The notes beneath the pieces were generated by a model that was given only the letters and a program-made list of their open reading frames with translations, was not told the origin of the DNA and made no database searches. From NCBI RefSeq assembly GCF_963921235.1, contig NC_086097.1, forward strand, positions 34,722,001 through 34,786,000: a DNA stretch of 64,000 bases, in the 5' to 3' direction. Each line of letters begins with the position of its first letter. Positions within the stretch are counted from its first letter, which is position 1. This document shows, one piece after another, positions 2,045-49,121 of the stretch. Source of the DNA: Mobula hypostoma. Lineage: Eukaryota. A program made the position numbers and the translations under genes.

Positions 2045-2290
2045 ACGGTGCAGGTGGCAGAGCAGGTACAACGTTTTACAGCACAGATGATCAGGGTTCA
2101 GTTCCTGCTGCTGCCGGTGAGTTCTCCCTGTCACCGAGTAGGAATTCTCTGGGTGCTTCGGTTTCCTCATGCTATCCAAAGCCATACCAGCTAACTGGTC
2201 ATTGGGCTAGGATTAAATTGGGGGTTGCTGGGTAGTGTGGCTCAAAGGACTGGAAGGGCCTATTCCTTCTTGTATCTCAATGAATAATAA
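2045..2290 (+). mobile_element. Degenerate tRNA-derived V-SINE-like element with CR1-type tail
   Basis: B-box-like gggttcagttcc, V-domain-like gggtgcttcggtttcctc and a CR1-like tail ggactggaagggcctattcc...tgtatctcaat. Confidence 0.5.
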
Positions 2291-3139
2291 TTACATTTTC
2301 AACTGTGTATAACTCTGTGGAGGTAATATGGAATATTAACATGCTGCTATACATAAGGTTCAGCTAATTAAAATAACTGATATCTGCTGCGGATTATTGG
2401 CAGCATCTTTCATCCAAGTCAAAGTTGAATTTGTCAGGTCTAGAAACTTAAGCACATAAATCCTCGGCTTTGCTTGTTTCGGCGGCCAGGGCGAGGTCAA
2501 TGGTGCTCGGGAGGTGGTATCGGAGGGGCTGGTCGGAGGCTCGAAGTTTTCAGATGGACGGACTCAGTGTCAGCTGTTCTCGAGTGCTTCCAATGCATCG
2601 GCAGTTGTCGGTGCCTAGAGGTTTATGGCAGGGAGTTTCTCCCTTTTGCTGCCTGCTTTCAGGGACTCGGGAGTCGATCGGGACTTGAGACTTTTTTTTT
2701 ACCGTGCCCGTAGTCTGCTCTTCATCAAATTATGGTATTGATTTGCACTGCTGTAACTATATGTTATAATTATGTGGCTCTGTCAGTGCTAGTCGTTGGT
2801 TTGTCCTGTTTTTCTGTGATATCATTCTGGAGGAATATTGTATCATTTCTTAATGCATGTATGCTTTTCTAAATGACAATAAATGAGGACTGAGTGTTCT
2901 CATAATCTTAAATAATTTTTTATTTTTAAGGCTGAGGATGTTCCATACTCTTGTTCTATGGATATGATGTTAAACCTAAAGCTCATTTCCCAATGAGGCA
3001 AATAAGAAGAACCCCAGAAGCAATCTAATAATTTACTTCATTGCTGTTTTTTGTGCCGTTGTTCTATTACAGCAATAATTATATTTCAAGAACTTCATGG
3101 AATGCAAATCCCTTTTAGACAACGAGACTATAAAGGGCA

Positions 3140-3258
3140 CTGAAGATGGGTCTCAGCCTAAATTGACTGGTTATTCATTTCCATAGATGCTGCCTGAACT
3201 CCTGAGTTCCTCCAGATTTTGTGTGGGTTGCTTTGGATTTCCAGTATCTGCAGACTTT
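3140..3258 (+). mobile_element. Old, degenerate PLE 3'/hammerhead-tail fragment; target of insertion A
   Basis: ctgaagatgggtctcagcctaaattgactg...catagatgctgcctg...tttccagtatctgcagacttt resembles the young PLE tail and resumes after 6922. Confidence 0.65.
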
Positions 3259-3281
3259 GCAGCATCTATAGGAAGAGGCGC

Positions 3282-3317
3282 AGTCGACGTTTCAGGCCGA
3301 GACCCTTCGTCAGGACT
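3282..3317 (-). ncRNA. Minimal type I hammerhead ribozyme (PLE A, minus arm)
   Basis: Reverse complement reads agtc CTGACGA agggtctcggcct GAAA C GTC gact. Confidence 0.85.
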
Positions 3318-3611
3318 AACTGAAGGAAGAGTGAGTAAGGGATTTGAAAGCTGGAGGGGGAGGGGGAGATGCAAAATGATAGGAGAAGACAGGAGGGGGA
3401 GGGATAGAGCCGAGAGCTGGACAGGTGATAGGCAAAAGGGGATACGAGAGGATCATGGGACAGGAGGTCCGGGAAGAAAGACGGGGGGGGGGGTGACCCA
3501 GAGGATGGGCAAGAGGTATATTCAGAGGGACAGAGGGAGAAAAAGGAGAGTGAGAGAAAGAATGTGTGCATAAAAATGAGTAACAGCTGGGGTACGAGGG
3601 GGAGGTGGGGC

Positions 3612-5011
3612 CTAGCGGAAGTTAGAGAAGTCAATGTTCATGCCATCAGGTTGGAGGCTACCCAGACGGAATATAAGGTGTTGTTCCTCCAACCTGAGTG
3701 TGGCTTCATCTTTACAGTAGAGGAGGCCGTGGATAGACATGTCAGAATGGGAATGGGATGTGGAATTAAAATGTGTGGCCACTGGGAGATCCTGCTTTCT
3801 CTGGCGGACAGAGCGTAGATGTTCAGCAAAGCGGTCTCCCAGTCTGCGTCGGGTCTCGCCAATATATAAAAGGCCACATCGGGAGCACCGGACGCAGTAT
3901 ATCACCCCAGTCGACTCACAGGTGAAGTGATGCCTCACCTGGAAGGACTGTTTGGGGCCCTGAATGGTGGTAAGGGAGGAAGTGTAAGGGCATGTGTAGC
4001 ACTTGTTCCGCTTACACGGATAAGTGCCAGGAGGGAGATCAGTGGGGAGGGATGGGGGGGACGAATGGACAAGGGAGTTGTGTAGGGAGCGATCCCTGCA
4101 GAATGCAGAGAGAGGGGGGGAGGGAAAGATGTGCTTAGTGGTGGGATCCCGTTGGAGGTGGCGGAAGTTACGGAGAATAATATGTTGGACCCGGAGGCTG
4201 GTGGGGTGGTAGGTGAGGACCAGGGGAACCCTATTCCTAGTGGGGTGGTGGGAGGATGGAGTGAGAGCAGATGTACGTGAAATGGAGGAGATGCGTTTAA
4301 GAGCAGAGTTGATAGTGGAGGAAGGGAAGCCCCTTTCTTTAAAAAATGAAGACATCTCCCTCGTCCTAGAATGAAAAGCCTCATCCTGAGAGCAGATGCG
4401 GCGGAGACGGAGGAATTGCGAGAAGGGGATGGCGTTTTTGCAAGAGACAGGGTGAGAAGAGGAATAGTCCAGATAGCTGTGAGAGTCAGTAGGCTTATAG
4501 TAGATATCAGTGGATAAGCTGTCTCCAGAGACAGAGACAGAAAGATCTAGAAAGGGGAGGGAGGTGTCGGAAATAGACCAGGTAAACTTGAGGGCAGGGT
4601 GAAAGTTGGAGGCAAAGTTAATAAAGTCAACGAGTTCTGCATGCGTGCAGGAAGCAGCGCCAATGCAGTCGTCGATATAGCGAAGGAAAAGTGGGGGACA
4701 GATACCAGAATAGGCACGGAACATAGATTGTTCCACAAACCCAGCAAAAAGGCAGGCATAGCTAGGACCCATACGGGTGCCCATAGCTACACCTTTAGTT
4801 TGGAGGAAATGGGAGGAGCAAAAGGAGAAATTATTAAGAGTAAGGACTAATTCCGCTAGACGGAGCAGAGTGGTGGTAGAGGGGAACTGATTAGGTCTGG
4901 AATCCAAAAAGAAGCGTAGAGCTTTGAGACCTTCCTGATGGGGGATGGAAGTATATAAGGACTGGACATCCATGGTGAAAATAAAGCGGTGTGGCCCAGG
5001 GAACTTAAAAT
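3612..5011 (-). CDS. 5'-truncated but uninterrupted PLE ORF: RT, Cys linker and GIY-YIG endonuclease (probably Neptune-type)
   Basis: RT motifs MDVQSLYTSI, GVAMGTRMGPSYA and RYIDD; linker CKRNKCYTC; endonuclease GVIYCVRCSRCGLLYIGET...RFAEH...VATHF; no stop over ~465 codons. Confidence 0.9.
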
Positions 5012-6487
5012 ACCTCGACACTGTTTTATCACCCCTTGTTCAATCCCTTCCGACCTATGTTCGTGACACTTCTCACGCTCTTAAACTTTTCGATGATTTT
5101 AAGTTCCCTGGCCCCCACCGCTTTATTTTCACCATGGATGTCCAGTCCTTATATACTTCCATCCCCCATCAGGAAGGTCTCAAAACTCTACGCTTCTTTT
5201 TGGATTCCAGACCTAATCAGTTCCCCTCTACCACCACTCTGCTCCGTCTAGCGGAATTAGTCCTTACTCCTAATAATTTCTCCTTTTGCTCCTCCCATTT
5301 CCTCCAAGCTAAAGGTGTAGCTATGGGCACCCGTATGGGTCCTAGCTATGCCTGCCTTTTTGTTGGGTTTGTGGAACAATCTATGTTCCGTGCCTATTCT
5401 GGTATCTGTCCCCCACTTTTCCTTCGCTATATCGACGACTGCATTGGCGCTGCTTCCTGCACGCATGCAGAACTCGTTGACTTTATTGCCTCCAACTTTC
5501 ACCCTGCCCTCAAGTTTACCTGGTCTATTTCTGACACCTCCCTCCCCTTTCTAGATCTTTCTGTCTCTGTCTCTGAAGACAGCTTATCCACTGATATCTA
5601 CTATAAGCCTACTGACTCTCACAGCTATCTGGACTATTCCTCTTCTCACCCTGTCTCTTGCAAAAACGCCATCCCCTTCTCGCAATTCCTCCGTCTCCGC
5701 CGCATCTGCTCTCAGGATGAGGCTTTTCATTCTAGGACGAGGGAGATGTCTTCATTTTTTTAAAGAAAGGGGCTTCCCTTCCTCCACTATCAACTCTGCT
5801 CTTAAACGCATCTCCTCCATTTCACGTACATCTGCTCTCACTCCATCCTCCCACCACCCCACTAGGAATAGGGTTCCCCTGGTCCTCACCTACCACCCCA
5901 CCAGCCTCCGGGTCCAACATATTATTCTCCGTAACTTCCGCCACCTCCAACGGGATCCCACCACTAAGCATATCTTTCCCTCCCCCCCCTCTGCATTCCG
6001 CAGGGATCGCTCCCTACACAACTCCCTTGTCCATTCGTCCCCCCCATCCCTCCCCACTGATCTCCCTCCTGGCACTTATCCGTGTAAGCGGAACAAGTGC
6101 TACACATGCCCTTACACTTCCTCCCTTACCACCATTCAGGGCCCCAAACAGTCCTTCCAGGTGAGGCATCACTTCACCTGTGAGTCGACTGGGGTGATAT
6201 ACTGCGTCCGGTGCTCCCGATGTGGCCTTTTATATATTGGCGAGACCCGACGCAGACTGGGAGACCGCTTTGCTGAACATCTACGCTCTGTCCGCCAGAG
6301 AAAGCAGGATCTCCCAGTGGCCACACATTTTAATTCCACATCCCATTTCCATTCTGACATGTCTATCCACAGCCTCCTCTACTGTAAAGATGAAGCCACA
6401 CTCAGGTTGGAGGAACAACACCTTATATTCCGTCTGGGTAGCCTCCAACCTGATGGCATGAACATTGACTTCTCTAACTTCCGCTAG
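5011..6487 (+). pseudogene. PLE RT/GIY-YIG ORF, 5'-truncated, frameshifted in the T run at ~5755-5761
   Basis: ORFs 4945..5763 and 5717..6487 together give the same protein as the minus arm, with a 6-bp in-frame deletion near 5487. Confidence 0.9.
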
Positions 6488-6779
6488 GCCCCACCTCCCC
6501 CTCGTACCCCAGCTGTTACTCATTTTTATGCACACATTCTTTCTCTCACTCTCCTTTTTCTCCCTCTGTCCCTCTGAATATACCTCTTGCCCATCCTCTG
6601 GGTCACCCCCCCCCGTCTTTCTTCCCAGACCTCCTGTCCCATGATCCTCTCGTATCCCCTTTTGCCTATCACCTGTCCAGCTCTCGGCTCTATCCCTCCC
6701 CCTCCTGTCTTCTCCTATCATTTTGCATCTCCCCCTCCCTCTCCAGCTTTCAAATCCCTTACTCACTCTTCCTTCAGTT

Positions 6780-6815
6780 AGTCCTGACGAAGGGTCTCGG
6801 CCTGAAACGTCGACT
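6780..6815 (+). ncRNA. Minimal type I hammerhead ribozyme (PLE A, plus arm); predicted cleavage after 6811
   Basis: CUGANGA core, helix II, GAAA, GUC triplet, helix I AGTC/GACT. Confidence 0.85.
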
Positions 6816-7149
6816 GCGCCTCTTCCTATAGATGCTGCTTGGCCTGCTGCGTTCACCGGCAACTTTGATGTGTGTTGCTTGAATTTCCAGCATCTGCAGA
6901 ATTCCTGTTATCTGCAGACTTTCTCGGGTTTATTCTTTTAAAGTGGGAAGCAAGGGTGCCCTCACCTGGTGATTAATAATATTACAGGAAGTATTCAGCG
7001 TAACCAAATTAATCACAGAAGAGAATGGCAAGACTATTTTAAATCGAGTGAAATATTGCTCTCTTCCTTCAGAATCACAGATGATTCTATTTCAACCCCA
7101 CATTCTCATAATGTATAAAATGGACACTTGGATTTGGAACAGTGACTAA

Positions 7150-7460
7150 TCAAAGAGTCAAATCTTGTTTAGCTTGCCCAAGTGAAATTTGTTGTTTTAT
7201 GGCAGCATTATAGTACAAAGACAAACCTGCTATAAATTACAAAATAAATAATAATGAGAAATTCATGGGTTCATGAACCAGTCAGAAATTTGCTGATGGA
7301 CGGGAAGAAGCTGTCCCTGAATTGTTGAATTGAGTCTTCAGACCCCTGTATCTCCTCCCTAATGGTAGTTTTGAGGGCATGACCCAGATGAGGATATCCT
7401 TACTGATGGACAGTCCCTCTATGGCACTGCCTCTTGAAGATCTTTGATGGGAGGGAGGGC
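7150..7460 (-). mobile_element. Old Rex1-like LINE 3' fragment
   Basis: Resembles 44140..44500 (gggaagaagctgtccctgaattg...gagggcatg). Confidence 0.5.
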
Positions 7461-8413
7461 TTTGATTTTATACAAACTATTATTTATACAATTTGTATAA
7501 TTGCTAAGTCCTCCTAAATGGTACGATAGAACAAAGCGGGGGAGAAGATCGGCTATGATTCTGTATACATACTGTATATGAATGCTACAGGCAGACACAG
7601 TGCCTCAGTCAGTAAGCCTACAAAATCACACTCTGTTAAACATCATAATGCACTTGCCATAAAAACAATTCATTTTTCTTTTCAGTGGAGTGAATTAAGG
7701 TGGAATAATTCCTTTGAAACCTGATCATTTCAAACAATTTCCATGTGTTGCTAAAACTTCTTCAGCATATCTATTTTGTGTACAAAGTGTTCTTGGCGCC
7801 ACATTGAACATATCTTGCTTTAAATGATCTGGCAGACTGAGACACATCACACGAGCAACAGCCTGATCTTGAGATTTTATTTTACAAGAAATTGAGAGGA
7901 AAAACCTGACATTCCACTTGAACCACATTTTATCCCAGGTCCACGCTAATCTATTTATTTATTTTTACTTACTCAAAGAGTGAAGGTATTTGATATAACC
8001 AGCATTTATTGTCCTGTTCGGTGCTGGTGAATCACCATTTTAAGGCAATTCAGTATAGGCATAATCCTCTGGGGTATGAAGCTTCAGGGTTTAGAATTGC
8101 GATTGATTTCAGGACTTCTAGCTGAGATTTCATCTGCTTCCGGGGTCACCTTGTTTTTGTGGCAACCAGAAGGCTTATCAGGTTGCTGATCCTACAGGAG
8201 AACTGAATGACCCTTTAAAACAAGAACCACTGCAGTCCCCTTTAACACATGGGAAGAGAATGTGAATGCCCACTTTAACGCATCGATATTGATCGTTGCG
8301 GGCCCTTTAACACATGGAGCTGCAGTTCCTTTGATAGAGTCATAGAGCTCTACAGCACAGAAACAGGCCATTTGGCCCATTGAGTCTGGGCCAAACTGTT
8401 ATTAAGCCTAGAC

Positions 8414-8463
8414 CAGGGGTTCCCAAATTTTTTATGGCATGGACCCCAGGTTGGGAATCCCTG
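8414..8463. mobile_element. 50-bp hAT-like mini-MITE
   Basis: TIRs caggggttcccaa / ttgggaatccctg; imperfect 8-bp TSD gcctagac / gctaagac. Confidence 0.55.
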
Positions 8464-8479
8464 GCTAAGACCCATCATT

Positions 8480-9925
8480 CCAGGGCGGGTACTCAGGATG
8501 TGCACGGCACAACTGGCAGGTGTGTTTACATAATTTTTAATCTTTCCCTCTCCCAGTGTAGAGTACCCTCCTGCTTCAAAACATCCACCATTGTTCCTGT
8601 GTCTAAAAAGACCAAGGTAACATGTCTGAACGACTGGCGTCCTGTCGCACTCACCTCAATAGTAAACAAATGCTTTGAGAGGCTGGTTAAGGATTGCAGC
8701 TGCGGCTCGCTACCACCCAAACTGGACCCACTACAGTTCACCTACTGACACAACCGATTGACAGATGATGCAATAGCCACAGCTCTACACACTGTCCTTA
8801 CACAACTGGAGAAGAGGGATGCTTATGTGAGAATGCTGTTCCTGGACTACAGTTCAGCATTCAACACCATAATTCCCTCCAGGCTCGACAAGAAGCTCAG
8901 AGACCTCCGCCTTCACCCTGCCTTGTGCAGCTGAATCCTGGACTTCCTGTCAGATCACTGGCAGGTGGTAAGAGTGGGCTCCCTCACCTCCACCCCTCTG
9001 ACACTCAATGCAGGTGCTCCTCAGGGCTGTGTCCTAAGCCTCCTCCTTTACTCTCTGTATACCCATGACTGTTTTGCCACCCACAGCTCCAATCTGCTAA
9101 TTAAATTTAGTAACAATACTACATTGATTGGCCTTATCTCAAATAATAACGAGGCAGCCTACAGAGAAGAAGTTATCACCCTGACACAGTGGTTCAAGAA
9201 AACAACCTCTCCCTCAATGTCGCAAAAACAAAGGAGCCAGTTGTGGATTACAGGAGGAATGGAAACAGGCTGACCCCTATTGACATCAATGGATTTGGGG
9301 TTGAGAGGGTGAACAGCTTTAAGTTCCTTGGCATACACTTCTCCGAGGATCTCACTTGGCTGTGTGGTGAAAAAAGACACAACAGTGCCTCTTTCATCTC
9401 AGATAGTTGAAGAAGTTTGGTGTGGGCCCCCAAATCCTAAGGACGTTCTACAGGGGCACATTTGAGAGCATCCTGACTGGATGCATCACTGCCTGGTATG
9501 GGAACTGTACCTCCCTCAATCACAGGACTCTGCAGAGAGTGGTGTGGACAGCCCAGTGCATTTGTTGTTGTGAACTTCCCATGGTTCAGAACATTTACAA
9601 AGACAGGTGTGTTAAAAGGGCCCAAAGAATCTTTGGGGACCCGAGTCACCCCAATCACGATCTATTCCAGCTGCTACCATCCGGGAAACGGTACCGCAGC
9701 ATAAAAGCCAGGATCAACAGACTCCGGGACAGCTTCTTCCACCAGGCCATCAGACTGATTAATTCATGTTGATACAATTGTACTTCTATGTTACATTGAC
9801 TGTGTGTTGTACATACTATTTATTACAAATTTACTATAAATTGCACATTTAGACGAAGATGTAACATAAAGATTTTTACTCATATACGTGAAGGATGTAA
9901 ATAATGAAGTCAATTCAGTTCAAAA
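8480..9925 (+). mobile_element. Rex1/Babar-like LINE, 5'-truncated, degenerate RT
   Basis: Peptides [64 protein letters not shown], with stops and frameshifts. Confidence 0.85.
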
Positions 9926-15794: not shown

Positions 15795-17351
15795 TCAACC
15801 AAATGTTTCTGGTAACTGTTGATCAGTCCTGCATATTGGCTTGGAGGAATTTTAGGCCATTCCTCCTAACAAAGCTATTTTAACTCTGGGATGCTGGTGG
15901 AGTTCATTGCTTGAACTGCTTGCTTCAGGTCCTTCCATAACGTTTCTACAGGATTAAGTTCAGGACCTTAACTCAGCCATTCCAGAATGTGAAATTTCTT
16001 CTGCTTTAACCATTCTTTGCTGGACTGACTTGTGTGTTTAGGGTCGTTGTCTTGCTGCATGACCCACTTTCTCTTGACCTTCAGTTCATGGATGGATACC
16101 CTGATATTTTTCTGTAGAATTTGCTGGTACAATTCAGAATTCATAGATCCATGAATGATGGCAAGCCATCCTGGTCCTGACGTAACAAAGCAGGCCCAAA
16201 CCATGACACTGCCACCACCATGTTTCACGGATGGGATGAGATTCTAGTGCTGGAATGTAATGCTTGCTTTTTGCCCAACATTATGCTTCTCATTTAAGCC
16301 AAAAAGTTCTGTTTTGAACTCATCCGTAAACAGAACATTTCTCCAATATCCTCTGGCTTATCCATGTGGTCTTTAGCAGACTTTAGATGGGCAGCAATAT
16401 TCTTCTTGGAGAGTAGTGGCTTTCTCCTTGCAATCTTGCCATGCACACCATTGTTCAGTGTTTGCCTGATGGTAAACTCATGAACACTGACATCAGCCAA
16501 TGTAAAAGAGCCTTAACAACAGGAATTCTGCAGATGCTGGAAACTCAAGCAACACACATCAAAGTTGCTGGTGAATCAGCAGGCCAGGCAGCATCTCTAG
16601 GAAGAGGTACAGTCAACGTTTCAGGCCGAGACCCTTCGTCAGGACTAACGAAGGGTCTCGGCCTGAAACGTTGACTGTACCTCTTCCTAGAGATGCTGCC
16701 TGGCCTGCTACATTCACCAGCAACTTTGATAAAAGAGCCTTAGATGTTATCCTGAGGTTCTTTGTGATCTCCTGGACTATTACACGCCTGGAATGAATTT
16801 TGTTGGCCCTGGCGAGAGTAACAACAGTGTTGAATTTCCTCCATTTGTACACAATCTGTCTGACTGTGGATTGGTGGAGCCCAAACTCTTTAGGAATGGT
16901 TTGTGTATCCTTTTCCAGCCTGGTGAGCATCAACTACTATTTTTCCAAGATCCTCAGAAATCTCCTTTGATCGAGGCATGGCACGCTTCCAAAAACCTGT
17001 GGTGAAGATCAGGCTATGATGGTGATAGACCCGGGTTTATGTTCTTCGAGTAGGGCAGGGCCTCCCACACTCTCACGTGATAGTCATCCCATTGATTGAA
17101 ACACCTGACTCTAATTTCCCCTTTAAATGAACTGATAATCCTAGAGGTTCACATACTTTTTCTGACAAATACATGTAATATTAGATCATTTATCTCAATA
17201 AGTAAATGAAGAAGTATAATTTTTGTTTGTTATTTAATTGGGTTCTCCTTATCTAGTTTTAGGACTTGCGTGAAGTTCTGATCGCACTTTAGGTCATTTA
17301 TTCAGAAATAGAGAAAATTCTAAAGGGTTCACATACTTTCTAGCACCACTG
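15795..17351 (-). mobile_element. Tc1-like DNA transposon, degenerate, interrupted by PLE insertion E
   Basis: KHGGGSVMVWACF, QQDNDPKHTS, IARRKPLLSKKN; terminus TA-cagtggtgctagaaagt on the minus strand. Confidence 0.85.
16516..16729. mobile_element. PLE insertion E: 214-bp inverted doublet of hammerhead plus tail only
   Basis: TSD taaaagagcctta at 16503..16515 and 16730..16742; junction microhomology 'ac' at 16648..16649; hammerhead at 16611..16646 (-), GUU triplet. Confidence 0.9.
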
Positions 17352-23434: not shown

Positions 23435-24081
23435 GTAAACACGAGGAATTCTGGAGATGCTGGAAATTCAAGCAACACACATCAAATTTGCTGGTGAATG
23501 CAGCAGACCAGGCAGCATCTCTAGGAAGAGGTACAGTGGACGTTTCGGGCTGAGACTCTTCGTCAGGACTAACTGAAGGAAGAGCTAGTAAGAGATTTGA
23601 AAGTGGGAGGGGGAGGGGGAAGATCCAAAATGATAGGAGAAGACAGGAGGGGGAGGGATGGAGCCAAGAGCTGGAGAGGTGATTGGCAAAGGGGATATGA
23701 GAGGATCATGGGACAGGAGGCCCAGGGAGAGGGAAAGGGGGGAAGGAGAAAAAAAACCCAGAGGATGGGCAAGGGGTATAGTCAGAGGGACAGAGAGAGA
23801 GAGAGAAAGAATGTGTGTATATAAATAAATAACAGATGGGGTACGAGGGGGAGGTGGGGCATTAGCGGAAGTTAGAGAAGTCAATGTTCATGCCATCAGG
23901 TTGGAGGCTACCCAGACGGAATATAAGGTGTTGTTCCTCCAACCTGAGTGTGGCTTCATCTTTACAGTAGAGGAGGCCGTGGATAGACATGTCAGAATGG
24001 GAATGGGATGTGGAATTAAAATGTGCGGCCACTGGGAGATCCTGCTACCCAATCTGTTATTTATTTATATACACTCATATA

Positions 24082-24149
<68 letters not shown>

Positions 24150-24682
24150 TTTCTCTCTCTCTCTTTTCTCTCTCTCTCTCTTTTCTCTCTCTCTCTCTCT
24201 TTTCTCTCTCTTTTCTCTCTCTCTCTCTCTTTTCTCTCTCTTCTCTTTCTCTCTCTCTCTCTCTCTTTTCTCTCTCTCTCTCTCTTTTCTCTCTCTCTCT
24301 TCTCTCTCTCTCTCTTTTCTCTCTCTCTCTCTCTCTCTTCTCTCTTCTCTCTCTTCTCTCCTCTCTCTCTTCTCTCCCCCCCTCTCTCTCTCACTATACC
24401 CCTTGCCCATCCTCTGGGTTCCCCCCACTTTTCCTTCTCCTTGGGCCTCCTGTCCCATGATCCTCTCGTATCCCTTTTGCCTATCGCCTGTCCAGCTCTT
24501 GGCTCTATCCCTCCCCCTCCTGTCTTCTCCTATCATTTTGGATCTCCCCCTCCCCCTCCAACTTTCAAATCTCTTACTCACACTTCCTTCCGTTAGTCCT
24601 GACGAAGGGTCTCAGCCCTAAACGTCGACTGCACCTCTTCCTAGAAATGCTGCCTGGCCTGCTGCGTTCACCAGCAACTTTG
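23435..24682. mobile_element. PLE insertion D: inverted doublet (minus arm 23435..~24046, plus arm ~24046..24682) in the L1 inter-ORF region
   Basis: TSD atcaacataagctc at 23421..23434 and 24683..24696; mutated hammerheads at 23535..23570 (-) and 24595..24630 (+). Confidence 0.9.
24083..24392 (+). repeat. Interrupted (CT)n microsatellite expansion, ~310 bp
   Basis: Directly visible; the other arm has only a short (GA)n run at ~23792..23806. Confidence 0.95.
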
Positions 24683-26809
24683 ATCAACATAAGCTCCATT
24701 TGTTAACAATTCAAAAACCAGAAAAATTACGCACTACAAATTAGAATTATACTTAGAGAAAAGAAAAACAATTCCACCAAAATGTATTAAGCTTAACTCA
24801 AAGTAATAGTCCAAAAGAAAAGATATGAACTAAGAAAGACTCAAACAAAGTTTACCCAGTAACCTACCCACGAGAAACTATGGATAAAAATTCACTGACT
24901 TGGAAAAAGAAAAAAAAGTACTTGTCCATCATTTTGACTAATCAAACCAAGTCTGAGGAAATGGAAGTAGCAGGGAGACTTTCGATAAATTTCTGAGCTT
25001 CTGTAACCAAGTTAAACCACGTTTTTTCTCCGGTAGCAAGAGTTATTCGGAGACGAGCTGGAAAACGCAGAGAGGGCCCGAGTCCACGATTGTAGAACTC
25101 TTTCATGACTCCTTTATATTCTGCTTGTAGACTCAGAACTTGGGGAGTATAATCCTCGACAATACAGATAGATTGACCCTTGTACAGGTTTCCCCCGCCA
25201 TCTGAAGGTAGAGCGTTCCTATGAAACGGTTCGTAAGCCAGAAGGTCGTAAAGCGCAGAAGCAATTACCATTTATTTATATGGGAAAAATTTGTGAGCAT
25301 TTGCAGACCCAAAAATAACCTACCAAATTGTGCCAAATATCACATAAAACCTAAAATAACAGTAACATATAGTAAAAGCAGGAATGATATGATAAGTACA
25401 CAGCCTATATAAAGTAGAAATACTTCTCTACAATCATTGCCTGCACTGTTCTCCGTAGCGAAAATCTCACCAAGCTCTCTCGGCAGAAACACTCTCTCCA
25501 GTAAACCTTTAAGCTATGAAGCTGCCAAATCATACCAAATAACACATAAAAATACACAGCCTATATAAAGTAGAAATAATGTGTGTACAGTGTAGTATCA
25601 CTTACCGGAATCGAGAAGTCAGCGCTGAGTGCAGTTGAGTCATCGCAGGCTGGGTGGTGCAGTGGCCCCCACCCTCCAGGCCGCCGACTGATACATTGCT
25701 GCAAAGCATGCAGGGGTACAGCGGTGGCCGGGACGCACCCAGCACATCTTTAAGAGAAAAGCCAAAATAAACAAGCTAATTAATTAGGTGCCGCCCGGCA
25801 CGTAAATGTCGGCCCAGATCAGAGGCGACGCAATCGGTAATTGCCTCTGATCTGGGCCGACATTTACATGCCGGGCGGCACCTAATTAATTAGCTTGTTT
25901 ATTTCAGCTTTTTTTCTTAAAGATGTGCTGGGTGCCTCCTGGCTATGGCTGCATTCTCCGCGAATCGGTATCTGTCCGCGGCCCAGGGGTTGGGGTGATG
26001 GGACACTGGGCTGTCATCTCATCGTCGTCTGTTTCCATTAGGGCAGGCAGGTCATCTTCTATGTCTGCCTGCCTCGATGTCGAAGGTCGAGGTTCGTCGT
26101 CTGCTGTGGCTGATGTGGAAGGCTTGCTTGACTGTTAGCCTTGCGATTTTTCTATCATACAGTTCTTCGTAAGTACTCAAACATCTTGCAAATATGCCCT
26201 ACACCGACGTACCCTTTCAAAATTAAAGTCGTACTTTTCTGCAATTATTGCAGTGAAAATCTCACGCAGTTGCTTCACGTTCAGTTCCTGGACGACTTCA
26301 CTTTCGGTCCACTCACTACTGCATTCGGTTTCGATTGCTATCCTTTCCTCTTCCAATTGCATCAGCTCTTCATCTATCAGTTCTTCGTTATGCAATGCCA
26401 AAACCTCTTCAACATCATCTTCGTTAACTTCCACAAGCCAAACTCACTTTGTCCTTACTTCGTTCACCACGATCAAAACGTTTAATTATGTCTAGTTTTA
26501 CGCTAAGTGTAGCACCCTTACAAGCTCTTTTAGGCTTTTCTGATACCTTAAACTCATCTTGCAAACGGACGCTCACAGGCACATGTTTAAGCAATGCCGG
26601 CTAGAATGCCGTTCCGAATCCGGGGGAGAGCAGCTGCTCGGGGCGCACGCTGCCTTTTTTCGTAACAGTGAAAACACCTTCTATTAGCGAAAACAGGGAA
26701 CTAATGTAGGTAAACAACAGGAATTCTGCAGATGCTGGAAATTCAAGCAACATACATCAAAGTTGCTGGTGAACGCAGCAGGCCAAGCAGCATCTATAGG
26801 AAGAGGCGC

Positions 26810-26845
26810 AGTCGACGTTTCAGGCCGAGACCCTTCGTCAGGACT
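26810..26845 (-). ncRNA. Minimal hammerhead ribozyme (PLE B, minus arm)
   Basis: Same motif as 6780..6815. Confidence 0.85.
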
Positions 26846-28018
26846 AACTGAAGGAAGAGTGAGTAAGGGATTTGAAAGCTGGAGGGGGAGGGGGAGATGC
26901 AAAATGATAGGAGAAGACAGGAGGGGGAGGGATAGAGCCGAGAGCTGGACAGGTGATAGGCAAAAGGGGATACGAGAGGATCATGGGACAGGAGGCCTAG
27001 GGAGAAAGACGGGGGGGGGTGACCCAGAGGATGGGCAAGAGGTATATTCAGAGGGACAGAGGGAGAAAAAGGAGAGTGAGAGAAAGAATGTGTGCATAAA
27101 AAGGAGTAACAGCTGGGGTACGAGGGGGAGGTGGGGCCTAGCGGAAGTTAGAGAAGTCAATGTTCATGCCATCAGGTTGGAGGCTACCCAGACGGAATAT
27201 AAGGTGTTGTTCCTCCAACCTGAGTGTGGCTTCATCTTTACAGTAGAGGAGGCCGTGGATAGACATGTCAGAATGGGAATGGGATGTGGAATTAAAATGT
27301 GTGGCCACTGGGAGATCCTGCTTTCTCTGGCGGACAGAGCGTAGACATGCCCTTACACTTCCTCCCTTACCACCATTCAGGGCCCCAAACAGTCCTTCCA
27401 GGTGAGGCATCACTTCACCTGTGAGTCGACTGGGGTGATATACTGCGTCCGGTGCTCCCGATGTGGCCTTTTATATATTGGTGAGACCCGACGCAGACTG
27501 GGAGACCGCTTTGCTGAACATCTACGCTCTGTCCGCCAGAGAAAGCAGGATCTCCCAGTGGCCACACATTTTAATTCCACATCCCATTCCCATTCTGACA
27601 TGTCTATCCACGGCCTCCTCTACTGTAAAGATGAAGCCACACTCAGGTTGGAGAAACAACACCTTATATTCCGTCTGGGTAGCCTCCAACCTGATGGCAT
27701 GAATATTGACTTCTCTAACTTCCGCTAGGCCCCACCTCCCCCTCGTACCCCAGCTGTTACTCCTTTTTATGCACACATTCTTTCTCTCACTCTCCTTTTT
27801 CTCCCTCTGTCCCTCTGAATATACCTCTTGCCCATCCTCTGGGTCACCCCCCCCCGGTCTTTCTCCCTAGGCCTCCTGTCCCATGATCCTCTCGTATCCT
27901 CTTTTGCCTATCACCTGTCCAGCTCTCGGCTCTATCCCTCCCCCTCCTGTCTTCTATCATTTTGCATCTCCCCCTCCCCCTCCAGCTTTCAAATCCCTTA
28001 CTCACTCTTCCTTCAGTT

Positions 28019-28054
28019 AGTCCTGACGAAGGGTCTCGGCCTGAAACGTCGACT
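28019..28054 (+). ncRNA. Minimal hammerhead ribozyme (PLE B, plus arm)
   Basis: agtcctgacgaagggtctcggcctgaaacgtcgact. Confidence 0.85.
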
Positions 28055-28641
28055 GCGCCTCTTCCTATAGATGCTGCTTGGCCTGCTGCGTTCACCAGCA
28101 ACTTTGAACTAATGTAGGTCTTTCATAACAGTGAGGTTTCGTAAAACGAACGTTCGAAAAGCGGGGAACACCTGAATTCCAACTTTCCTCTCTGACGTGC
28201 TTCCATAATCAAAAGGTTTTTCACCTTACAGCGATGAAAACAGAGAATTAATGGGTGTAGCCTATGGCCCAACTCCGGCTTAGGCGTAAAAGTACGGTGG
28301 ACTCGGAAGAATATCATTCCCAAAAATTTCACAAAGTAATGTAGAAAAAAATTCAACTGGGGATTCACTTTCGATAGCCTCTGGCAAGCCGAGGATTTGT
28401 AGATTTTGACGTCTGTTGCGACCTTCCAGATCCATAACTTTGGATATTAACTTGCTGTTATAATCCCTCAAGCTGGAGCAAGCGGTTCCCAAATCGTGAA
28501 AGCAGCGTTTTAAATCATCGGTAGCAGACTCAAGAAGAGAAAGACGTTTGGCATGAGCCTCCACTTTGGAATTAATTTGATCTAATTTGGATTCCAACGA
28601 ACCGAAAGAAGTCTTAAATTCAGACTTGAGTTCGAATACTA

Positions 28642-31430: not shown

Positions 31431-31635
31431 TGGATTTCAAATTAAATCTGTTGAGTTCCTTAGTCTTAACAATTCAGAGCTAGAAACTTGAACTGTTGGG
31501 TCAGCTACTGAATACATCAAATTTTGAGCTGGGGATTTGGAGAACAATTTTGCTGCATAAAAATAAGATGGAATTGTCTATTTTACTTCTGTGCTTATTT
31601 ATCTCATTTAAGATCGTGGAGGGATAAGCTCAGTC

Positions 31636-35930: not shown

Positions 35931-37640
35931 TATATACGAAGAGATTACATGGAGCTAGAGCCAGAAAATATTTCCTCAGGCAAAGCACAATTGACACTAG
36001 GCATAATCTTCCAAGTAAGATGGTGGAGGCAGGAAGTCTGGAGCTACTCGGGAGGTAATGGTTTGCTGTAAGGGAAGTCCACAGATTTTCCAAGAATGGG
36101 TGAAAAATGTAGTCTCTCCTTTCATACTGATCTTTGCACGTCATCTAATGTAGGAACACAAGTGTGGTACCGGAAATGGCCTTTTAACAAGAACATTGTG
36201 AACATCCAATCAGTAGACATTTTGTCACTCATGAATGATGGGCACATTCCGTTCATTGCAAGTGCAGTGATTCACAGATAATATGAGAACGCTGGTGAAA
36301 GGTTAGAGAATATTATTTAGATCTCTAAGACAGCTGTGAAAGCTTAACAGATGAAATCAGGTGCAACATTGTCATTAGTGATGTGGGAAATGAGCTGATG
36401 TAAAACGGATACAGCTCACACCATCCCACTAGGCACTAGCCCTGACCTGACCTCTCAGAGATGCTGAATTTCTTCATACCTTGTTTGAAATTGTCATTGT
36501 AAACCACCTTTGGGCTTCCTTTGATTCACAGCAGACCTCATTCTGCTAAATGCTGTCCTCTGTAGCTGACTTGTTTTGAGGCGTGATCTCCATCAGTCTG
36601 AGCCTGGAACACCTGTAAGCATCCAGTGTTACCCACAAATACTGGGCACATTCTTTCAAGGATCGTGTTCCTCTATATTCTTTGGTCCCAAGTGACCAGT
36701 GATTTTATGCAGTGCATTTGGTGCTCATGATGTGATCTTCCAATTAAGGAGGAATCAAATGCAGATCAAGTGACACCTTGCAGAATTCCTCCATTCACTC
36801 CTTCAGGCTGATTCTGAACTTCCAGTTGAACGGCACTTTAATTTTCCATCCCACGCCCATTCAAACCTCCTCGTCTTTAAACCCTTGATATATGCCAAAC
36901 TAACTTAACAGAATACTATTTTCTTTTCCAGTTAGGCGTGTGATAGCCTTTAGCTCTTGGCATTAATTTCAGCATACTCAGATTACGAACCTTTCCAGTC
37001 TTGCATCTCCCATTCCAACATTGTTTAGTGTTTGTTTCTTCCTGCTTACATCCACTTCAGTCTCTCTTGCTCTCAACACTGTCCCACCACCATTGCTTTC
37101 TGTGTAACTTAAAACCTACTTATTCTAGCTTTTAACTTATAAATTGCTAACGTCTCCCTGGTCTGATGAAAGATAATCGGCCTGAAATGCTTCCCCTGTG
37201 GTCACCCCCCACATTTGCTGCACAAAATATAAACATCCCAGGCCATAAAAGTGCACACTCCTCATCAGTAAGTGCTTCCACTACAGTATCTTGAATAACT
37301 TTACATAAATGTAGGCATTTCTTACTTGTATTTCTTAATTATATTAGACTGCAGTTTCAAAGTGACATAATCACCTCAGAACTCACTCAGACTTCTTCCG
37401 TAATTTCTCAGTGAAAGTTCAACATTATGATTTAGGAAGCCAAGGAGTATGGGGAGAAGTGGGAAAGGTGCTGTCAAGACTAAATTTGGATCAGCCATAA
37501 ATTGTCAATAATCTTATTGAGGGGCCAATCAGCATACTGGTCATCCATTTCCACACCTTATCACGACAGTGTCATTGACCTATTGGCATCGCATACCTTT
37601 TGCACACAGGTCACCATAACAGGTAAGTGATAGTAGCTGT

Positions 37641-38254
37641 GTCCGCCAGAGAAAGCAGGATCTCCCAGTGGCCACACATTTTAATTCCACATCCCATTCC
37701 CATTCTGATATGTCTATCCATGGCCTCCTCTACTGTCAAGATGAAGCCACACTCAGGTTGGAGGAACAACACCTTATATTCCGTCTGGGTAGCCTCCAAC
37801 CTGATGGCATGAACATTGACCTCTCTAACTTCCGCTAATGCCCCACCTCCCCCTCGTACCCCATCCATTATTTATTTATATACACACATTCTTTCTCTCT
37901 CTGTCCCTCTGACTATACCCCTTGCCCATCCTCTGGGTTTCCCCCCCTCCCCCTTTTTCTTCTCCCTGGGCCTCCTGTCCCATAATCCTCTCATATCCCT
38001 TTTGCCAATCACCTGTCCAGCTCTTGGCTCCATCTCTCCCCCTCCTGTCTTCTCCTATCGTTTTGGATCTCCCCCTCCCCCTCCCACTGTCAAATCTCTT
38101 ACTAGCTCTTCTCTCAGTTAGTCCTGACGAAGGGTCTCGGCCCGAAACGTCGACTGTACCTCTTCCTAGAGATGCTGCCTGGCCTGCTGCGTTCACCAGC
38201 AACTTTTATGTGTGTGGCTTGAAATTCCAGCATCTGCAGAATTCCTCGTGTTTA
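37641..38254 (+). mobile_element. PLE insertion F: single-arm 5'-truncated copy (older subfamily) with hammerhead at 38120..38155
   Basis: TSD tgatagtagctgt at 37628..37640 and 38255..38267. Confidence 0.9.
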
Positions 38255-41003
38255 TGATAGTAGCTGTCTGGTGTCCAGGTATGAGTTCATTCTAAACTCT
38301 GTTGCTTGTGTTTCAACCCACAGCATGTCCTGTGAACCTATGACCTCTGTGCTTGCTGGCTCACACAGGCTCCCAGTTAAGTAACATCACCATTTTAAAA
38401 TTCTCATCTCTTAAATCCCTTCAATGTCTCAGCTTTCCCCTTCTCTATGACCCTATGAGATTTGAGTATTTCCATAGTTGAATTTAAATGCTTCAGCTAC
38501 GGCAGCTGAACTGAATAAGCTGATCTTCCTTTTAAAGCCTCTGTAACTGTCGACATTTTTACACCTTTGAGAAGTTCTTTTAGATCTACATTGTGCACAC
38601 ATTAGTGTTTTCTTCTCTTGGATCTTGTAGTACTTGAGACACTTATGTTAAAGGGGCTATAGAAGTGAAAGCTGGTGAATTTACTCTGTTTGGAATAAGT
38701 GAAGAAAAGCAAGGGAAGGAGAGGTATGTGGAAGAATTGATAAAACAAGATCAGAAAATGAGGGAAGGTAAGAAAATAGCAAAATATTGCTGGAAATGTG
38801 ACAGTAGATAATGTTGGAAATCTTTAGTAGGACAGGCAACATCTGTGGAAAGAGAAACCATAGTATTTTGAATGAATAAATTTTCAGCAGTTTTTTGTTC
38901 ATTAGATATAAATCCATGTTTAAATTATAAAGATGGGATTACCAAGAGAGATGCTGTTTTAAAGATGGATGTGAATATACTCTTTTTGGGTTCCAGCTGG
39001 GTACAGGTATCCCCGATGAAGATGGCAGAGTTTGTCATTGTTATATTCAATACTTGTACTTGGCGGGAAGCGCGAGAAGAGTTTATTCGTCATGTATGCC
39101 GGGAAAGCACTAGATCCTTTTTTTCAAAGATAGTCACATTAGCCTTTTCAGATGTGTGGCCTATAAATAACTTCCCTCAGGAATTTTGGGTTGTATACGG
39201 CATAGGGCATGAGTTGAAAAACAAAAGAAATGCAGGTGCTAGAAATCTGAAATGAAAACAGAAAAATGCAGTAAATCAAGCTGTATATATAGAGAACTAA
39301 AAGTTACCATTTCAAGTCATCACGTGACTGTAATTTTGATACATTGAACTATTTACACCTGGATTTATATGATAGCTTCTGAAAATCAATGCACATCAGT
39401 CAGTAGTTCACTGTCAATTAGCAATTTTATAGTTTTGTCATTCAGGCTAACACAATTAATTTGTACTTGGCCATGATCTACAAACAGAATAGGGTAATAT
39501 CCAGAACAGATCTATTTGTGAAGACAACCATTCCTTGAGAGAAAATGGGTTTTGGTGTAGGGATGAGTAATTGTATCAGGTCACAGCGGATGCCTGACTT
39601 TGTGATTTCTTCTTTTAATTAAGGGAATTGATTATCTTTGAATTCATCCCTTTCACTTCAGGCTTTAACATTTAAATTGGCACCCCTCACCACGGCAACA
39701 CTGTATAGCAGGAAGACAGAATATGTAGCACTGTTGTGTTACATACTATCTATCATTTATGGTTCATTTAGCAAACTACTGAACACTACACTGTTTATCA
39801 TTAGTAATTCCAAAAAAGAGTGGGAACCTCTCTCACCTCCATCTGTCAGACTGCCTGGGAAATTGGCCCACAATGTGTTTTATTGGAGAACTGATGAAAT
39901 GTCCATAACAAAGCATGTACAACAAACAGACATTTTATATTAGTTTTCCTTGGCTTTCCTTCACATCTGATATCAGAATAAAAGGAAGCCATATTGAAAA
40001 TAATTATTATCTATGAACACCTTTTTTCTGAGCCATTTTACAAAGTCAACATGATGATGTGAATTGGGAGAGTGCTAACAGTGACTCTGAGCTATGATTG
40101 CCATCCTGATGAAAAATACCAAATCCCTATTTTTGCCAGTACAAGTGAACTAAGAAAATGCAAGATATGACATCGATCAGATCTAAAAAAAAAATTGGTA
40201 TTTTGTTACAGAGTCCTCAGCCAGGAAGAATAAAATGGATTAATCCTGTTTCACCCCTAACAGATACTGTAATTCTGGCCAGTTGTCTCAATTTGGGTTT
40301 TGCCATATGGAAATAATGCCTGAAATTAAATGGAAAACAAAATATTAAAGTAATTGGAATAGAAAGCAATGGAAAGGCAGTATATCAATCAGCAATAAAT
40401 TCAGATGTGTGCCCACCATCAAAACAGATGACTGAAGTAAGAACGGACAAGTTAAGTTAGAAAAACTAAAGAGAAAGAGAACAAGGAATAGGATCAATAA
40501 TGTTGCCATATATAAGAAAAAATGGACATTTCTAGTTGCAACCAAATTTTGACTGAAGTCTACTGGTGGTTGACAATATCTCATTTATATATTGACTTGA
40601 ACATTGAAAAAAATAACCTCAGGCATTCCAAAGGAGAATTACCCAATGTTGTCACACAAGAAAAAGAGATATCTACTAGTGAATGGGATAAAGCAGTAAA
40701 AAAAGGTATCTTTACGGATGGGATTTTTGGCAGACTAGGGAACCATGTAAAATGTAAAAACAATATTGTAAACTAATGTTAAAGGTAGTGTAAATGCTTG
40801 TGCGCAGTAATGTTATTCTTATTTTTGACCACTAGATGGCGCATACAATTTTGGTTAGAACTAAGTTTGCCCAGCTTTAGATTCAGAATTAGATTTATTA
40901 TACGTAAACAACAGGAATTCTGCAGATGCTGGAAATTCAAGCAACATACATCAAAGTTGCTGGTGAACGCAGCAGGCCAAGCAGCATCTATAGGAAGAGG
41001 CGC

Positions 41004-41039
41004 AGTCGACGTTTCAGGCCGAGACCCTTCGTCAGGACT
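41004..41039 (-). ncRNA. Minimal hammerhead ribozyme (PLE C, minus arm)
   Basis: Same motif as 6780..6815. Confidence 0.85.
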
Positions 41040-42199
41040 AACTGAAGGAAGAGTGAGTAAGGGATTTGAAAGCTGGAGGGGGAGGGGGAGATGCAAAATG
41101 ATAGGAGAAGACAGGAGGGGGAGGGATAGAGCCGAGAGCTGGACAGGTGATAGGCAAAAGGGGATACGAGAGGATCATGGGACAGGAGGCCTAGGGAGAA
41201 AGACGGGGGGGGGTGACCCAGAGGATGGGCAAGAGGTATATTCAGAGGGACAGAGGGAGAAAAAGGAGAGTGAGAGAAAGAATGTGTGCATAAAAAGGAG
41301 TAACAGCTGGGGTACGAGGGGGAGGTGGGGCCTAGCGGAAGTTAGAGAAGTCAATGTTCATGCCATCAGGTTGGAGGCTACCCAGACGGAATATAAGGTG
41401 TTGTTCCTCCAACCTGAGTGTGGCTTCATCTTTACAGTAGAGGAGGCCGTGGATAGACATGTCAGAATGGGAATGGGATGTGGAATTAAAATGTGTGGCC
41501 ACTGGGAGATCCTGCTTTCTCTGGCGGACAGAGCGTAGATGTTCAGCAAAGCGGTCTCCCAGTCTGCGTCGGGTCTCACCAATATATAAAAGGCCACATC
41601 GGGAGCACCGGACGCAGTATATCACCCCAGTCGACTCACAGGTGAAGTGATGCCTCACCTGGAAGGACTGTTTGGGGCCCTGAATGGTGGTAAGGGAGGA
41701 AGTGTAAGGGCATGTGTAGCACTTGTTCCGCTTACACGGATAAGTGCCAGGAGGGAGATCAGTGGGGAGGGATGGGGGGGACGAATGGACAAGGGAGTTG
41801 TGTAGGGAGCGATCCCTGCGGAATGCAGAGAGAGGGGGGGAGGGAAAGATGTGCTCAGTGGTGGGATCCTGTTGGAGGTGGCGGAAGTTACGGAGAATAA
41901 TATGTTGGACCCGGAGGCTGGTGGGGTGGTAGGTGAGGACCAGGGGAACCCTATTCCTAGTGGGGTGGTGGGAGGATGGAGTGAGAGCAGATGTACGTGA
42001 AATGGAGGAGATGCGTTTAAGAGCAGAGTTGATAGTGGAGGAAGGGAAGCCCCTTTCTTTAAAAAAGGAAGACATCTCCCTCGTCCTAGAATGAAAAGCC
42101 TCATCCTGAGAGCAGATGCGGCGGAGACGGAGGAATTGCGAGAAGGGGATGGCGTTTTTGCAAGAGACAGGGTGAGAAGAGGAATAGTCCAGATAGCTG

Positions 42200-43732
42200 G
42201 CCGACCTATTGTCTCAGCTTGCTCCTGCCCCACCGAACTCGTTTCTGCATACCTCGACACTGTTTTATCACCCCTTGTTCAATCCCTTCCGACCTATGTT
42301 CGTGACACTTCTCACGCTCTTAAACTTTTCGATGATTTTAAGTTCCCTGGCCCCCACCGCTTTATTTTCACCATGGATGTCCAGTCCTTATATACTTCCA
42401 TCCCCCATCAGGAAGGTCTCAAAGCTCTACGCTTCTTTTTGGATTCCAGACCTAATCAGTTCCCCTCTACCACCACTCTGCTCCGTCTAGCGGAATTAGT
42501 CCTTACTCTTAATAATTTCTCCTTTTGCTCCTCCCATTTCCTCCAAACTAAAGGTGTAGCTATGGGCACCCGTATGGGTCCTAGCTATGCCTGCCTTTTT
42601 GTTGGGTTTGTGGAACAATCTATGTTCCGTGCCTATTCTGGTATCTGTCCCCCACTTTTCCTTCGCTATATCGACGACTGCATTGGCGCTGCTTCCTGCA
42701 CGCATGCAGAACTCGTTGACTTTATTAACTTTGCCTCCAACTTTCACCCTGCCCTCAAGTTTACCTGGTCTATTTCCGACACCTCCCTCCCCTTTCTAGA
42801 TCTTTCTGTCTCTGTCTCTGGAGACAGCTTATCCACTGATATCTACTATAAGCCTACTGACTCTCACAGCTATCTGGACTATTCCTCTTCTCACCCTGTC
42901 TCTTGCAAAAACGCCATCCCCTTCTCGCAATTCCTCCGTCTCCGCCGCATCTGCTCTCAGGATGAGGCTCTTCATTCTAGGACGAGGGAGATGTCTTCAT
43001 TTTTTAAAGAAAGGGGCTTCCCTTCCTCCACTATCAACTCTGCTCTTAAACGCATCTCCTCCATTTCACGTACATCTGCTCTCACTCCATCCTCCCACCA
43101 CCCCACTAGGAATAGGGTTCCCCTGGTCCTCACCTACCACCCCACCAGCCTCCGGGTCCAACATATTATTCTCCGTAACTTCCGCCACCTCCAACGGGAT
43201 CCCACCACTAAGCATATCTTTCCCTCCCCCCCCCTCTGCATTCCGCAGGGATCGCTCCCTACACAACTCCCTTGTCCATTCGTCCCCCCCATCCCTCCCC
43301 ACTGATCTCCCTCCTGGCACTTATCCGTGTAAGCGGAACAAGTGCTACACATGCCCTTACACTTCCTCCCTTACCACCATTCAGGGCCCCAAACAGTCCT
43401 TCCAGGTGAGGCATCACTTCACCTGTGAGTCGACTGGGGTGATATACTGCGTCCGGTGCTCCCGATGTGGCCTTTTATATATTGGTGAGACCCGACGCAG
43501 ACTGGGAGACCGCTTTGCTGAACATCTACGCTCTGTCCACCAGAGAAAGCAGGATCTCCCAGTGGCCACACATTTTAATTCCACATCCCATTCCCATTCT
43601 GACATGTCTATCCACGGCCTCCTCTACTGTAAAGATGAAGCCACACTCAGGTTGGAGGAACAACACCTTATATTCCGTCTGGGTAGCCTCCAACCTGATG
43701 GCATGAACATTGACTTCTCTAACTTCCGCTAG
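42200..43732 (+). pseudogene. PLE RT/GIY-YIG ORF from RPIVS onward, frameshifted in the C run at ~43226-43234
   Basis: ORFs 42091..43305 and 42962..43732. Confidence 0.9.
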
Positions 43733-44025
43733 GCCCCACCTCCCCCCGTACCCCAGCTGTTACTCCTTTTTATGCACACATTCTTTCTCTCACTCTCCTT
43801 TTTCTCCCTCTGTCCCTCTGAATATACCTCTTGCCCATCCTCTGGGTCACCCCCCCCCCCGTCTTTCTCCCTAGGCCTCCTGTCCCATGATCCTCTCGTA
43901 TCCCCTTTTGCCTATCACCTGTCCAGCTCTCGGCTCTATCCCTCCCCCTCCTGTCTTCTCCTATCATTTTGCATCTCCCCCTCCCCCTCCAGCTTTCAAA
44001 TCCCTTACTCACTCTTCCTTCAGTT

Positions 44026-44061
44026 AGTCCTGACGAAGGGTCTCGGCCTGAAACGTCGACT
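44026..44061 (+). ncRNA. Minimal hammerhead ribozyme (PLE C, plus arm)
   Basis: Same motif as 6780..6815. Confidence 0.85.
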
Positions 44062-44137
44062 GCGCCTCTTCCTATAGATGCTGCTTGGCCTGCTGCGTTC
44101 ACCAGCAACTTTGATGTATGTTGCTTAGATTTATTAT

Positions 44138-49012: not shown

Positions 49013-49121
49013 AACACACATCAAAGTTGCTGGTGAACGCAGCAGGCCAAGCAACATCTGTAGCAAGAGGTGCAGTCGATGTTTCAGGCCGAGACCCTTC
49101 GTCAGGACTCCATGAATATGG
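49013..49121 (-). mobile_element. PLE insertion G: hammerhead plus tail only, with a short filler sequence
   Basis: Hammerhead variant at 49074..49109; imperfect TSD aaatggataggt (49001..49012) / aaatagataggt (49122..49133). Confidence 0.75.

What the first reader, a model, noticed from the sequence alone, without database searches (positions are those of the whole stretch)
6780..6815. Hammerhead ribozyme with no room for helix III: probable obligate dimer
Seen: agtc-CTGACGA-agggtctcggcct-GAAA-C-GTC^gact recurs about ten times (3282, 6780, 16611, 23535, 24595, 26810, 28019, 38120, 41004, 44026, 49074; some mutated). Only CG lies between A15.1 and U16.1, giving the palindrome ACGU (AACGUU in copy E). 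Established: PLEs carry minimal type I hammerheads, and such motifs can cleave as dimers through palindromic helix III. Inference: this one can fold only as a dimer, which would pair two element RNAs and could explain two-template doublets. Helix II has two possible registers, one with an extra A after A9.
Basis: partly seen in the sequence, partly recalled or inferred. Interest (0 to 1): 0.7.

Follow-up and report, generated by a model that had tools for sequence, protein, structure and literature searches.

The report
Minimal hammerhead ribozyme in Penelope retrotransposon
This is a stripped-down hammerhead RNA motif at the ends of a very common Penelope-type jumping gene, of a design published in 2014 that likely cuts only when two copies pair, so it is an ordinary member of a known kind.

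Summary
The motif is real: 12 copies in the window and 88,531 exact cores in the genome against 35 for the control. It lies at the end of a Penelope-like element (RT + GIY-YIG). Its anatomy matches the "min-HHR" of Cervera and de la Peña 2014: no helix III beyond a palindromic 15.2-16.2 pair, an extra base after A9, and activity seen only in dimer or trimer constructs. The dimer idea is therefore published. The extra-A register of helix II is the supported one. Head-to-head doublets are real (56, target duplication about 14 bp), and 5 of 29 informative ones join two distinct templates. But all 8 loci picked as full-length partial tandems carry two same-strand hammerheads, so a dimer can form within one transcript. 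Also, 92 of 97 copies run through the cleavage site, and related elements lacking hammerheads make the same inverted structures. The scan noted a similar motif in another genome (e1-10276032).

The parts
6779..6783 (+). Helix I, 5' strand (outer pair U·G in young copies, C-G in old copies)
6784..6790 (+). Hammerhead core C3-A9 (CUGACGA); N7 varies C/T/A
6791..6791 (+). Extra unpaired A between A9 and G10.1
   Evidence: feature named in PMC4209133
6792..6803 (+). Helix II, 4 bp with a 4-nt loop; G10.1 pairs with U or C at 11.1
6804..6811 (+). G12-A15.1, C15.2, G16.2, U16.1, C17: palindromic ACGU with no loop III; predicted cleavage after 6811
6812..6816 (+). Helix I, 3' strand (GACUG)
6760..6781 (+). 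Branch-point-like word, polypyrimidine run and AG directly before helix I: possible 3' splice site, untested
   Evidence: sequence; analogy to the D. virilis intron end
5010..6909 (+). 5'-truncated Penelope-like element, long arm of the doublet: RT, CxxC linker, GIY-YIG (stop at 6487), 3' region, hammerhead, tail to about +98 from C17
3259..5011 (-). Inverted second arm of the same insertion, with a short 3' end (+27); hammerhead core at 3286-3313
3245..3258 (+). Left copy of the 14-bp target-site duplication (coordinates inferred from the arm end)
6909..6922 (+). Right copy of the 14-bp target-site duplication
16518..16730 (.). Very short head-to-head doublet; both hammerheads have C17U and the + copy also G5A
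23444..24684 (.). Older doublet, two mutated hammerheads (cores 23539-23566 minus, about 24599-24626 plus)
26716..28107 (.). Young doublet, intact hammerheads (26814-26841 minus, 28023-28050 plus)
37636..38254 (+). Single truncated copy, core 38124-38151 with C at 11.1
40910..44132 (.). Young doublet, intact hammerheads (41008-41035 minus, 44030-44057 plus)
49013..49109 (-). Short single copy, hammerhead with G16.2A

Best explanation
This is a minimal type I hammerhead motif in the terminal repeat of an endonuclease-bearing Penelope-like retrotransposon, and it likely cleaves only as a double hammerhead, probably with help from protein. Shown: the core, helices I and II, the loopless ACGU, and a second copy about 3.5 kb away on the same strand in full-length elements. 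Inferred: two copies swap their 3' halves, so ACGU pairs with ACGU as a shared 4-bp helix III and both helix I stems form between the copies. The partner is most simply the other terminal repeat of the same tandem transcript. Cleavage would trim unit-length RNA out of read-through transcripts. It is slow or late, because most genomic copies were made from RNA not cut at this site. The head-to-head doublets are likely made by the RT-endonuclease priming both strands of a target cut about 14 bp apart, not by the ribozyme dimer.
For: Conservation between 81 old and 221 young copies covers 6779-6816 while both flanks turn over. The common changes inside are N7, loop II, two pair-keeping swaps and CpG-type transitions. 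Relatives show loose ends before 6780 and behind 6816. All 8 loci picked as full-length partial tandems have two same-strand cores 3.5-3.7 kb apart, and one has an open 1,016-aa ORF. PMC4209133 defines this motif and found a single copy inactive and dimer or trimer constructs weakly active. The Anolis hammerhead cleaved only with element protein and was not needed for insertion; that protein cuts and extends both strands and is predicted to be a dimer. 92 of 97 copies run through the cleavage site.
Against: No cleavage was measured for this sequence. In ViennaRNA the double hammerhead (-11.5 kcal/mol) is far less stable than the best co-fold (-30.3) or two free monomers (-22.0), and helix III adds nothing in that model; the model ignores tertiary contacts. 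I found no two-sided compensatory change in the helices, only G-C/G·U swaps. Pairing in cis versus in trans cannot be told from DNA.
Confidence: 0.75

Rival explanations
1. The hammerhead dimer joins two separate element RNAs, much as a retroviral dimerisation signal does, and delivers both to one target site, giving head-to-head doublets.
For: In 5 of 29 informative doublets the arms differ at 2 or more diagnostic non-CpG sites and both haplotypes recur elsewhere, so two templates were used. 55 of 56 doublets pair one long with one short 3' end. Arm 5' ends correlate (Spearman 0.76; 18 of 56 within 20 nt against 8.8 shuffled). 5' truncation peaks just 5' of the core: 1.3% per nt at -27 to -50, against 0.42 downstream and about 0.1 far upstream.
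Against: Naiad elements lack canonical hammerheads yet show inverted copies and tails. Hammerhead mutants insert normally in vitro. A cis partner exists. The truncation peak overlaps a near-palindrome that forms a rival hairpin, and junctions there overlap by 6-21 nt, so DNA microhomology can explain the symmetric junctions. 14 of 29 doublets show no diagnostic difference, and arms are much closer than random pairs (43 against 206 differences), which same-source templates also give. The doublet sample was partly chosen for close pairs.
Confidence: 0.15
2. The motif rarely or never cleaves. It is kept as a protein-binding, splicing or promoter-proximal signal, or as a passenger on the element.
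For: There is no pile-up of copy ends at the cleavage site: 5 of 97 end between -5 and +6. The predicted active fold is unstable. A splice-acceptor-like tract abuts helix I. No RNA reads ended at the Anolis site. PMC8557442 raises the idea that hammerheads parasitise these elements.
Against: The catalytic core letters and helix pairings are what is conserved between old and young subfamilies. Related min-HHRs do cleave in vitro.
Confidence: 0.1

Closest known systems
min-HHR of metazoan Penelope-like elements (Cervera and de la Peña 2014, PMC4209133; main text parts 1-2 of 4 read, figures and supplements not seen)
   Same: Only conserved nucleotides at helix III, palindromic 15.2-16.2, an extra base between 9 and 10.1, a 4-5 bp helix I, position in the pLTR, most copies in truncated elements, and opposite-strand pairs 100-700 bp apart already noted.
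   Different: Helix II is 4 bp here against 7-8 bp in the S. mansoni families. G10.1 pairs with U in most young copies. The exact cores number about 88,500 against 2,000-9,000 in the genomes that paper counted, and they are homogeneous.
Small dimer-cleaving hammerheads of PLEs (Lünse, Weinberg, Breaker, RNA Biol 14:1499; only the title seen in a reference list, plus a review's passages; the paper was not held)
   Same: By title and review: short palindromic stem III, type I, cleavage as dimers.
   Different: I could not check whether this exact variant is among theirs.
Anolis Poseidon element PAc (PMC11167929; passages and second half of the main text read)
   Same: Hammerhead at the pLTR-ORF junction; two classes of 3' end that define a tail; unprocessed RNA used as template.
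   Different: This element has a CxxC linker. Its ATG lies about 138 nt after the cleavage site and not inside the ribozyme. Its long end is precise and its short end variable.
EN+ PLEs with inverted pLTR, tail and target duplication (PMC3846280, PMC8557442; passages read)
   Same: Partial tandems, an inverted 5'-truncated copy, a tail at one end only, and palindromes at the inverted junction.
   Different: The passages I saw give no counts of long/short pairing or of arms from two templates; PMC3846280 proposes self-priming instead.

Membership tests
min-HHR of Penelope-like elements | Hammerhead core CUGANGA, GAAA, UH in type I order | tested here: met
min-HHR of Penelope-like elements | No helix III or loop 3 beyond palindromic positions 15.2-16.2 | tested here: met
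   CG in 109 of 123 descriptor hits and CA or TG in 13; 2,618 cores differ at both positions, and the listed ones are mostly TA in decayed copies
min-HHR of Penelope-like elements | [quoted passage not shown] | tested here: met
   108 of 109 copies pair helix II only in this register; -7.0 against -2.7 kcal/mol
min-HHR of Penelope-like elements | G10.1-C11.1 closing pair | tested here: met
   G-C in 19,468 cores and 48 of 81 old copies; G·U wobble in 164 of 221 young copies, including the one at 6780
min-HHR of Penelope-like elements | Located in the terminal repeats of a PLE | tested here: met
min-HHR of Penelope-like elements | Helix sizes within the published descriptor | not testable with these tools
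   The descriptor is in a figure that is not held; the text says the sizes were relaxed
min-HHR of Penelope-like elements | Inactive as monomer, cleaves as dimer | not testable with these tools
   Needs a cleavage assay; the folding model does not favour the active dimer
EN+ Penelope-like element | Single ORF with RT and C-terminal GIY-YIG | tested here: met
   RVT_1 E 2e-4 and GIY-YIG E 3e-4 on one frame, both under Pfam's cut-offs; 1,016-aa ORF in L234
EN+ Penelope-like element | Partial tandem or inverted pLTR, tail at one end, target duplication | tested here: met
Neptune or Nematis clade | CX2-5CxxC linker between RT and endonuclease | tested here: met
   C-X4-C-X2-C before the GIY-YIG domain; definition
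Neptune or Nematis clade | Placement in an RT phylogeny | not tested
   No tree was built and no homologue search was run
Non-LTR retrozyme | Non-coding tandem units each bearing a hammerhead | tested here: not met
   The copy at 6780 follows an RT-endonuclease ORF inside an inverted doublet; definition

The most novel reading that the evidence does not exclude
The loopless hammerhead acts as an RNA dimerisation signal. It holds two uncleaved element RNAs in one particle, which then primes one RNA at a fixed long start and the other at a variable short start on opposite strands of a 14-bp staggered cut. This would be a retrovirus-like two-RNA mechanism in a retrotransposon outside the LTR class.
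Probability: 0.12. Interest if true: 0.6.

Novelty: new member of a known kind. Interest (0 to 1): 0.2.

Why it matters
The motif and its need to dimerise are published, so the finding as posed adds one more host genome, with an unusually high copy number. The by-product is more useful. This young family gives numbers on the poorly understood Penelope insertion step: a target duplication of about 14 bp, one long and one short end in 55 of 56 doublets, and two distinct templates in at least 5 of 29. These favour priming on both strands over self-priming for at least some doublets, whatever the ribozyme does.

Tried and rejected
Rfam gave no hammerhead hit in the window; its 7 matches were weak and below the family cut-offs, with the best on the inverted repeat at 16.6 kb. 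A search for RNA runs listed no holder on record as RNA. The two layings used contigs only, so they cannot show RNA ends, strand or splicing. A DNA search with the RT 5' part returned nothing, which shows nothing. The A-U register of helix II was rejected. A separate family with another palindrome at 15.2-16.2 was not seen for the 13-nt spacer; other spacers were not searched genome-wide. A pile-up of copy ends at the cleavage site was not seen. Paper searches for twin priming or two templates in Penelope elements, for hammerhead + Penelope + cartilaginous and for recent mechanism papers found nothing beyond PMC11167929; the library lacks most subscription papers. A look-up of earlier findings by sequence was empty.

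Full report
Observation. The motif is at 6780-6816 as described. The genome holds 88,531 exact cores against 35 for the reversed control. Rfam did not call it. In hammerhead numbering, GAAACGUC is G12 A13 A14 A15.1 C15.2 G16.2 U16.1 C17, so there is no loop III.

Context. The motif lies about 300 nt after the stop of an ORF with RT, a CX4CX2C linker and GIY-YIG (both Pfam hits are under the curated cut-offs). This is an endonuclease-bearing Penelope-like element; the linker fits the Neptune or Nematis clades, but I built no tree. A word from the 5' part of the element, 110 nt past the cleavage site, occurs 924 times. By my reading of the 30 loci examined, 18 have a whole hammerhead just upstream, 4 a part and 8 none. 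I picked 8 loci that looked like full-length partial tandems; all 8 have two same-strand cores 3.5-3.7 kb apart, and one has an open 1,016-aa ORF. Two further full-length loci lack the upstream copy from this family. One transcript of a partial tandem thus carries two hammerheads.

Structure. Comparing 81 old with 221 young copies, conservation covers 6779-6816 while both flanks turn over. The common changes inside are N7, loop II, C or U at 11.1, C or U at the outer pair of helix I, and CpG-type transitions. Four coded runs from other organisms show loose ends before 6780 and behind 6816. This points to selection on the fold, though I saw no two-sided compensation. Helix II uses the extra-A register in 108 of 109 copies, and 19,468 cores have C at 11.1, which cannot pair with that A. 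In ViennaRNA the double hammerhead scores -11.5 kcal/mol against -30.3 for the best co-fold and -22.0 for two monomers, and a rival hairpin hides the core when upstream bases are included. The active form would therefore need help or be rare.

What is known. PMC4209133 (parts 1-2 of 4 read) reasons that no helix III or loop 3 is needed, defines the min-HHR, and lists the palindromic 15.2-16.2, the extra base after position 9 and G10.1-C11.1. It reports a single copy inactive and dimers or trimers weakly active, and notes opposite-strand pairs. A review (passages) cites Lünse et al. for dimer cleavage; that paper was not held.

Doublets. Among the loci fetched by then (222 distinct arms) there are 56 head-to-head pairs with a shared flank word of 10 bp or more, mode 14 bp. 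The sample is partly chosen: 30 best hits, 20 regions picked for close pairs, 40 evenly picked stretches, and motif-anchored loci. 55 of the 56 pair one long 3' end (+90 or more from C17) with one short end (+22 to +76); about half would be expected by chance. 29 doublets had 5 or more diagnostic sites. In 14 the arms were identical at these sites; in 5 they differed at 2 or more with both haplotypes seen at least twice elsewhere; the other 10 were in between. Two templates are thus used at least sometimes, although gene conversion is not excluded. Arms are much closer than random pairs (43 against 206 differences). Arm 5' ends correlate, but the sampling favours this.

Does the ribozyme cause them? 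Probably not. Among 109 copies anchored at +32, the 5' truncation rate is 0.42% per nt at +32 to +7, 0.23 at +6 to -2, 0.66 at -3 to -26, 1.30 at -27 to -50, 0.49 at -51 to -76 and about 0.1 beyond (the set is the places listed plus about 9 from other loci). Only 5 of the 97 copies that reach +6 end between +6 and -5, so templates were mostly uncut or religated. The peak overlaps a near-palindrome, and junctions there overlap by 6-21 nt, which microhomology explains; an RNA start site or a stall at the folded RNA would also fit. Naiad elements lack canonical hammerheads and still show inverted copies and tails (PMC8557442, passages). The Anolis element cuts and extends both strands, is predicted to be a protein dimer, and inserts normally with a dead hammerhead (PMC11167929). 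Inverted repeats, tails and junction palindromes are described in PMC3846280 (passages). My searches found no paper that counts two-template Penelope doublets, but coverage is limited and I saw no supplements.

Verdict. This is a new member of a known kind. The most likely mechanism is a double hammerhead, slow or protein-assisted, most simply between the two terminal repeats of one transcript (0.75). A role in pairing two RNAs for doublet insertion is not excluded (0.12-0.15). Expression and cleavage were not testable: no run is on record as RNA and only contigs were available. Interest 0.2.

Noticed in passing
window 6760-6781; L033 1585-1606: A branch-point-like word, a polypyrimidine run and AG sit directly before helix I; old subfamilies keep the pyrimidine run and AG with a different sequence. 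It may be a 3' splice site, as in D. virilis Penelope. No spliced form was seen.
   Followed up: partly
L222 and L223 (G000:C1 about 46,047,000-46,048,700): Tandem units of about 435 bp made of the hammerhead region plus the element's first 190 or so bases, with no RT: looks like a retrozyme-type derivative. Similar short units occur in L204, L205, L208, L215 and L219.
   Followed up: partly
window 3245-3258 and 3140-3257: The doublet inserted into the tail of an older copy of a related element; the target duplication is part of that tail.
   Followed up: partly
window 6184-6194: A second GTC-GACTG word lies inside the endonuclease coding region. It could pair with helix I, but position 6188 reads differently in most contigs of the laid runs, so it is likely chance.
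   Followed up: partly
window 6795-6798 and 6829-6832: Loop II could form 3-4 bp with a conserved downstream word; no covariation in 223 copies.
   Followed up: partly
window 31612-32802 (+): A 396-aa uninterrupted WD40 beta-propeller frame, a host gene; WDR89-like from recall, not tested.
   Followed up: no
window 19578-23169 (-): A decayed non-LTR retrotransposon with endonuclease and RT frames.
   Followed up: no
window 28944-29456 (+) and 34848-35408 (-): Fragments of DNA transposase; the second matches DDE_3. Tc1-like from recall.
   Followed up: no
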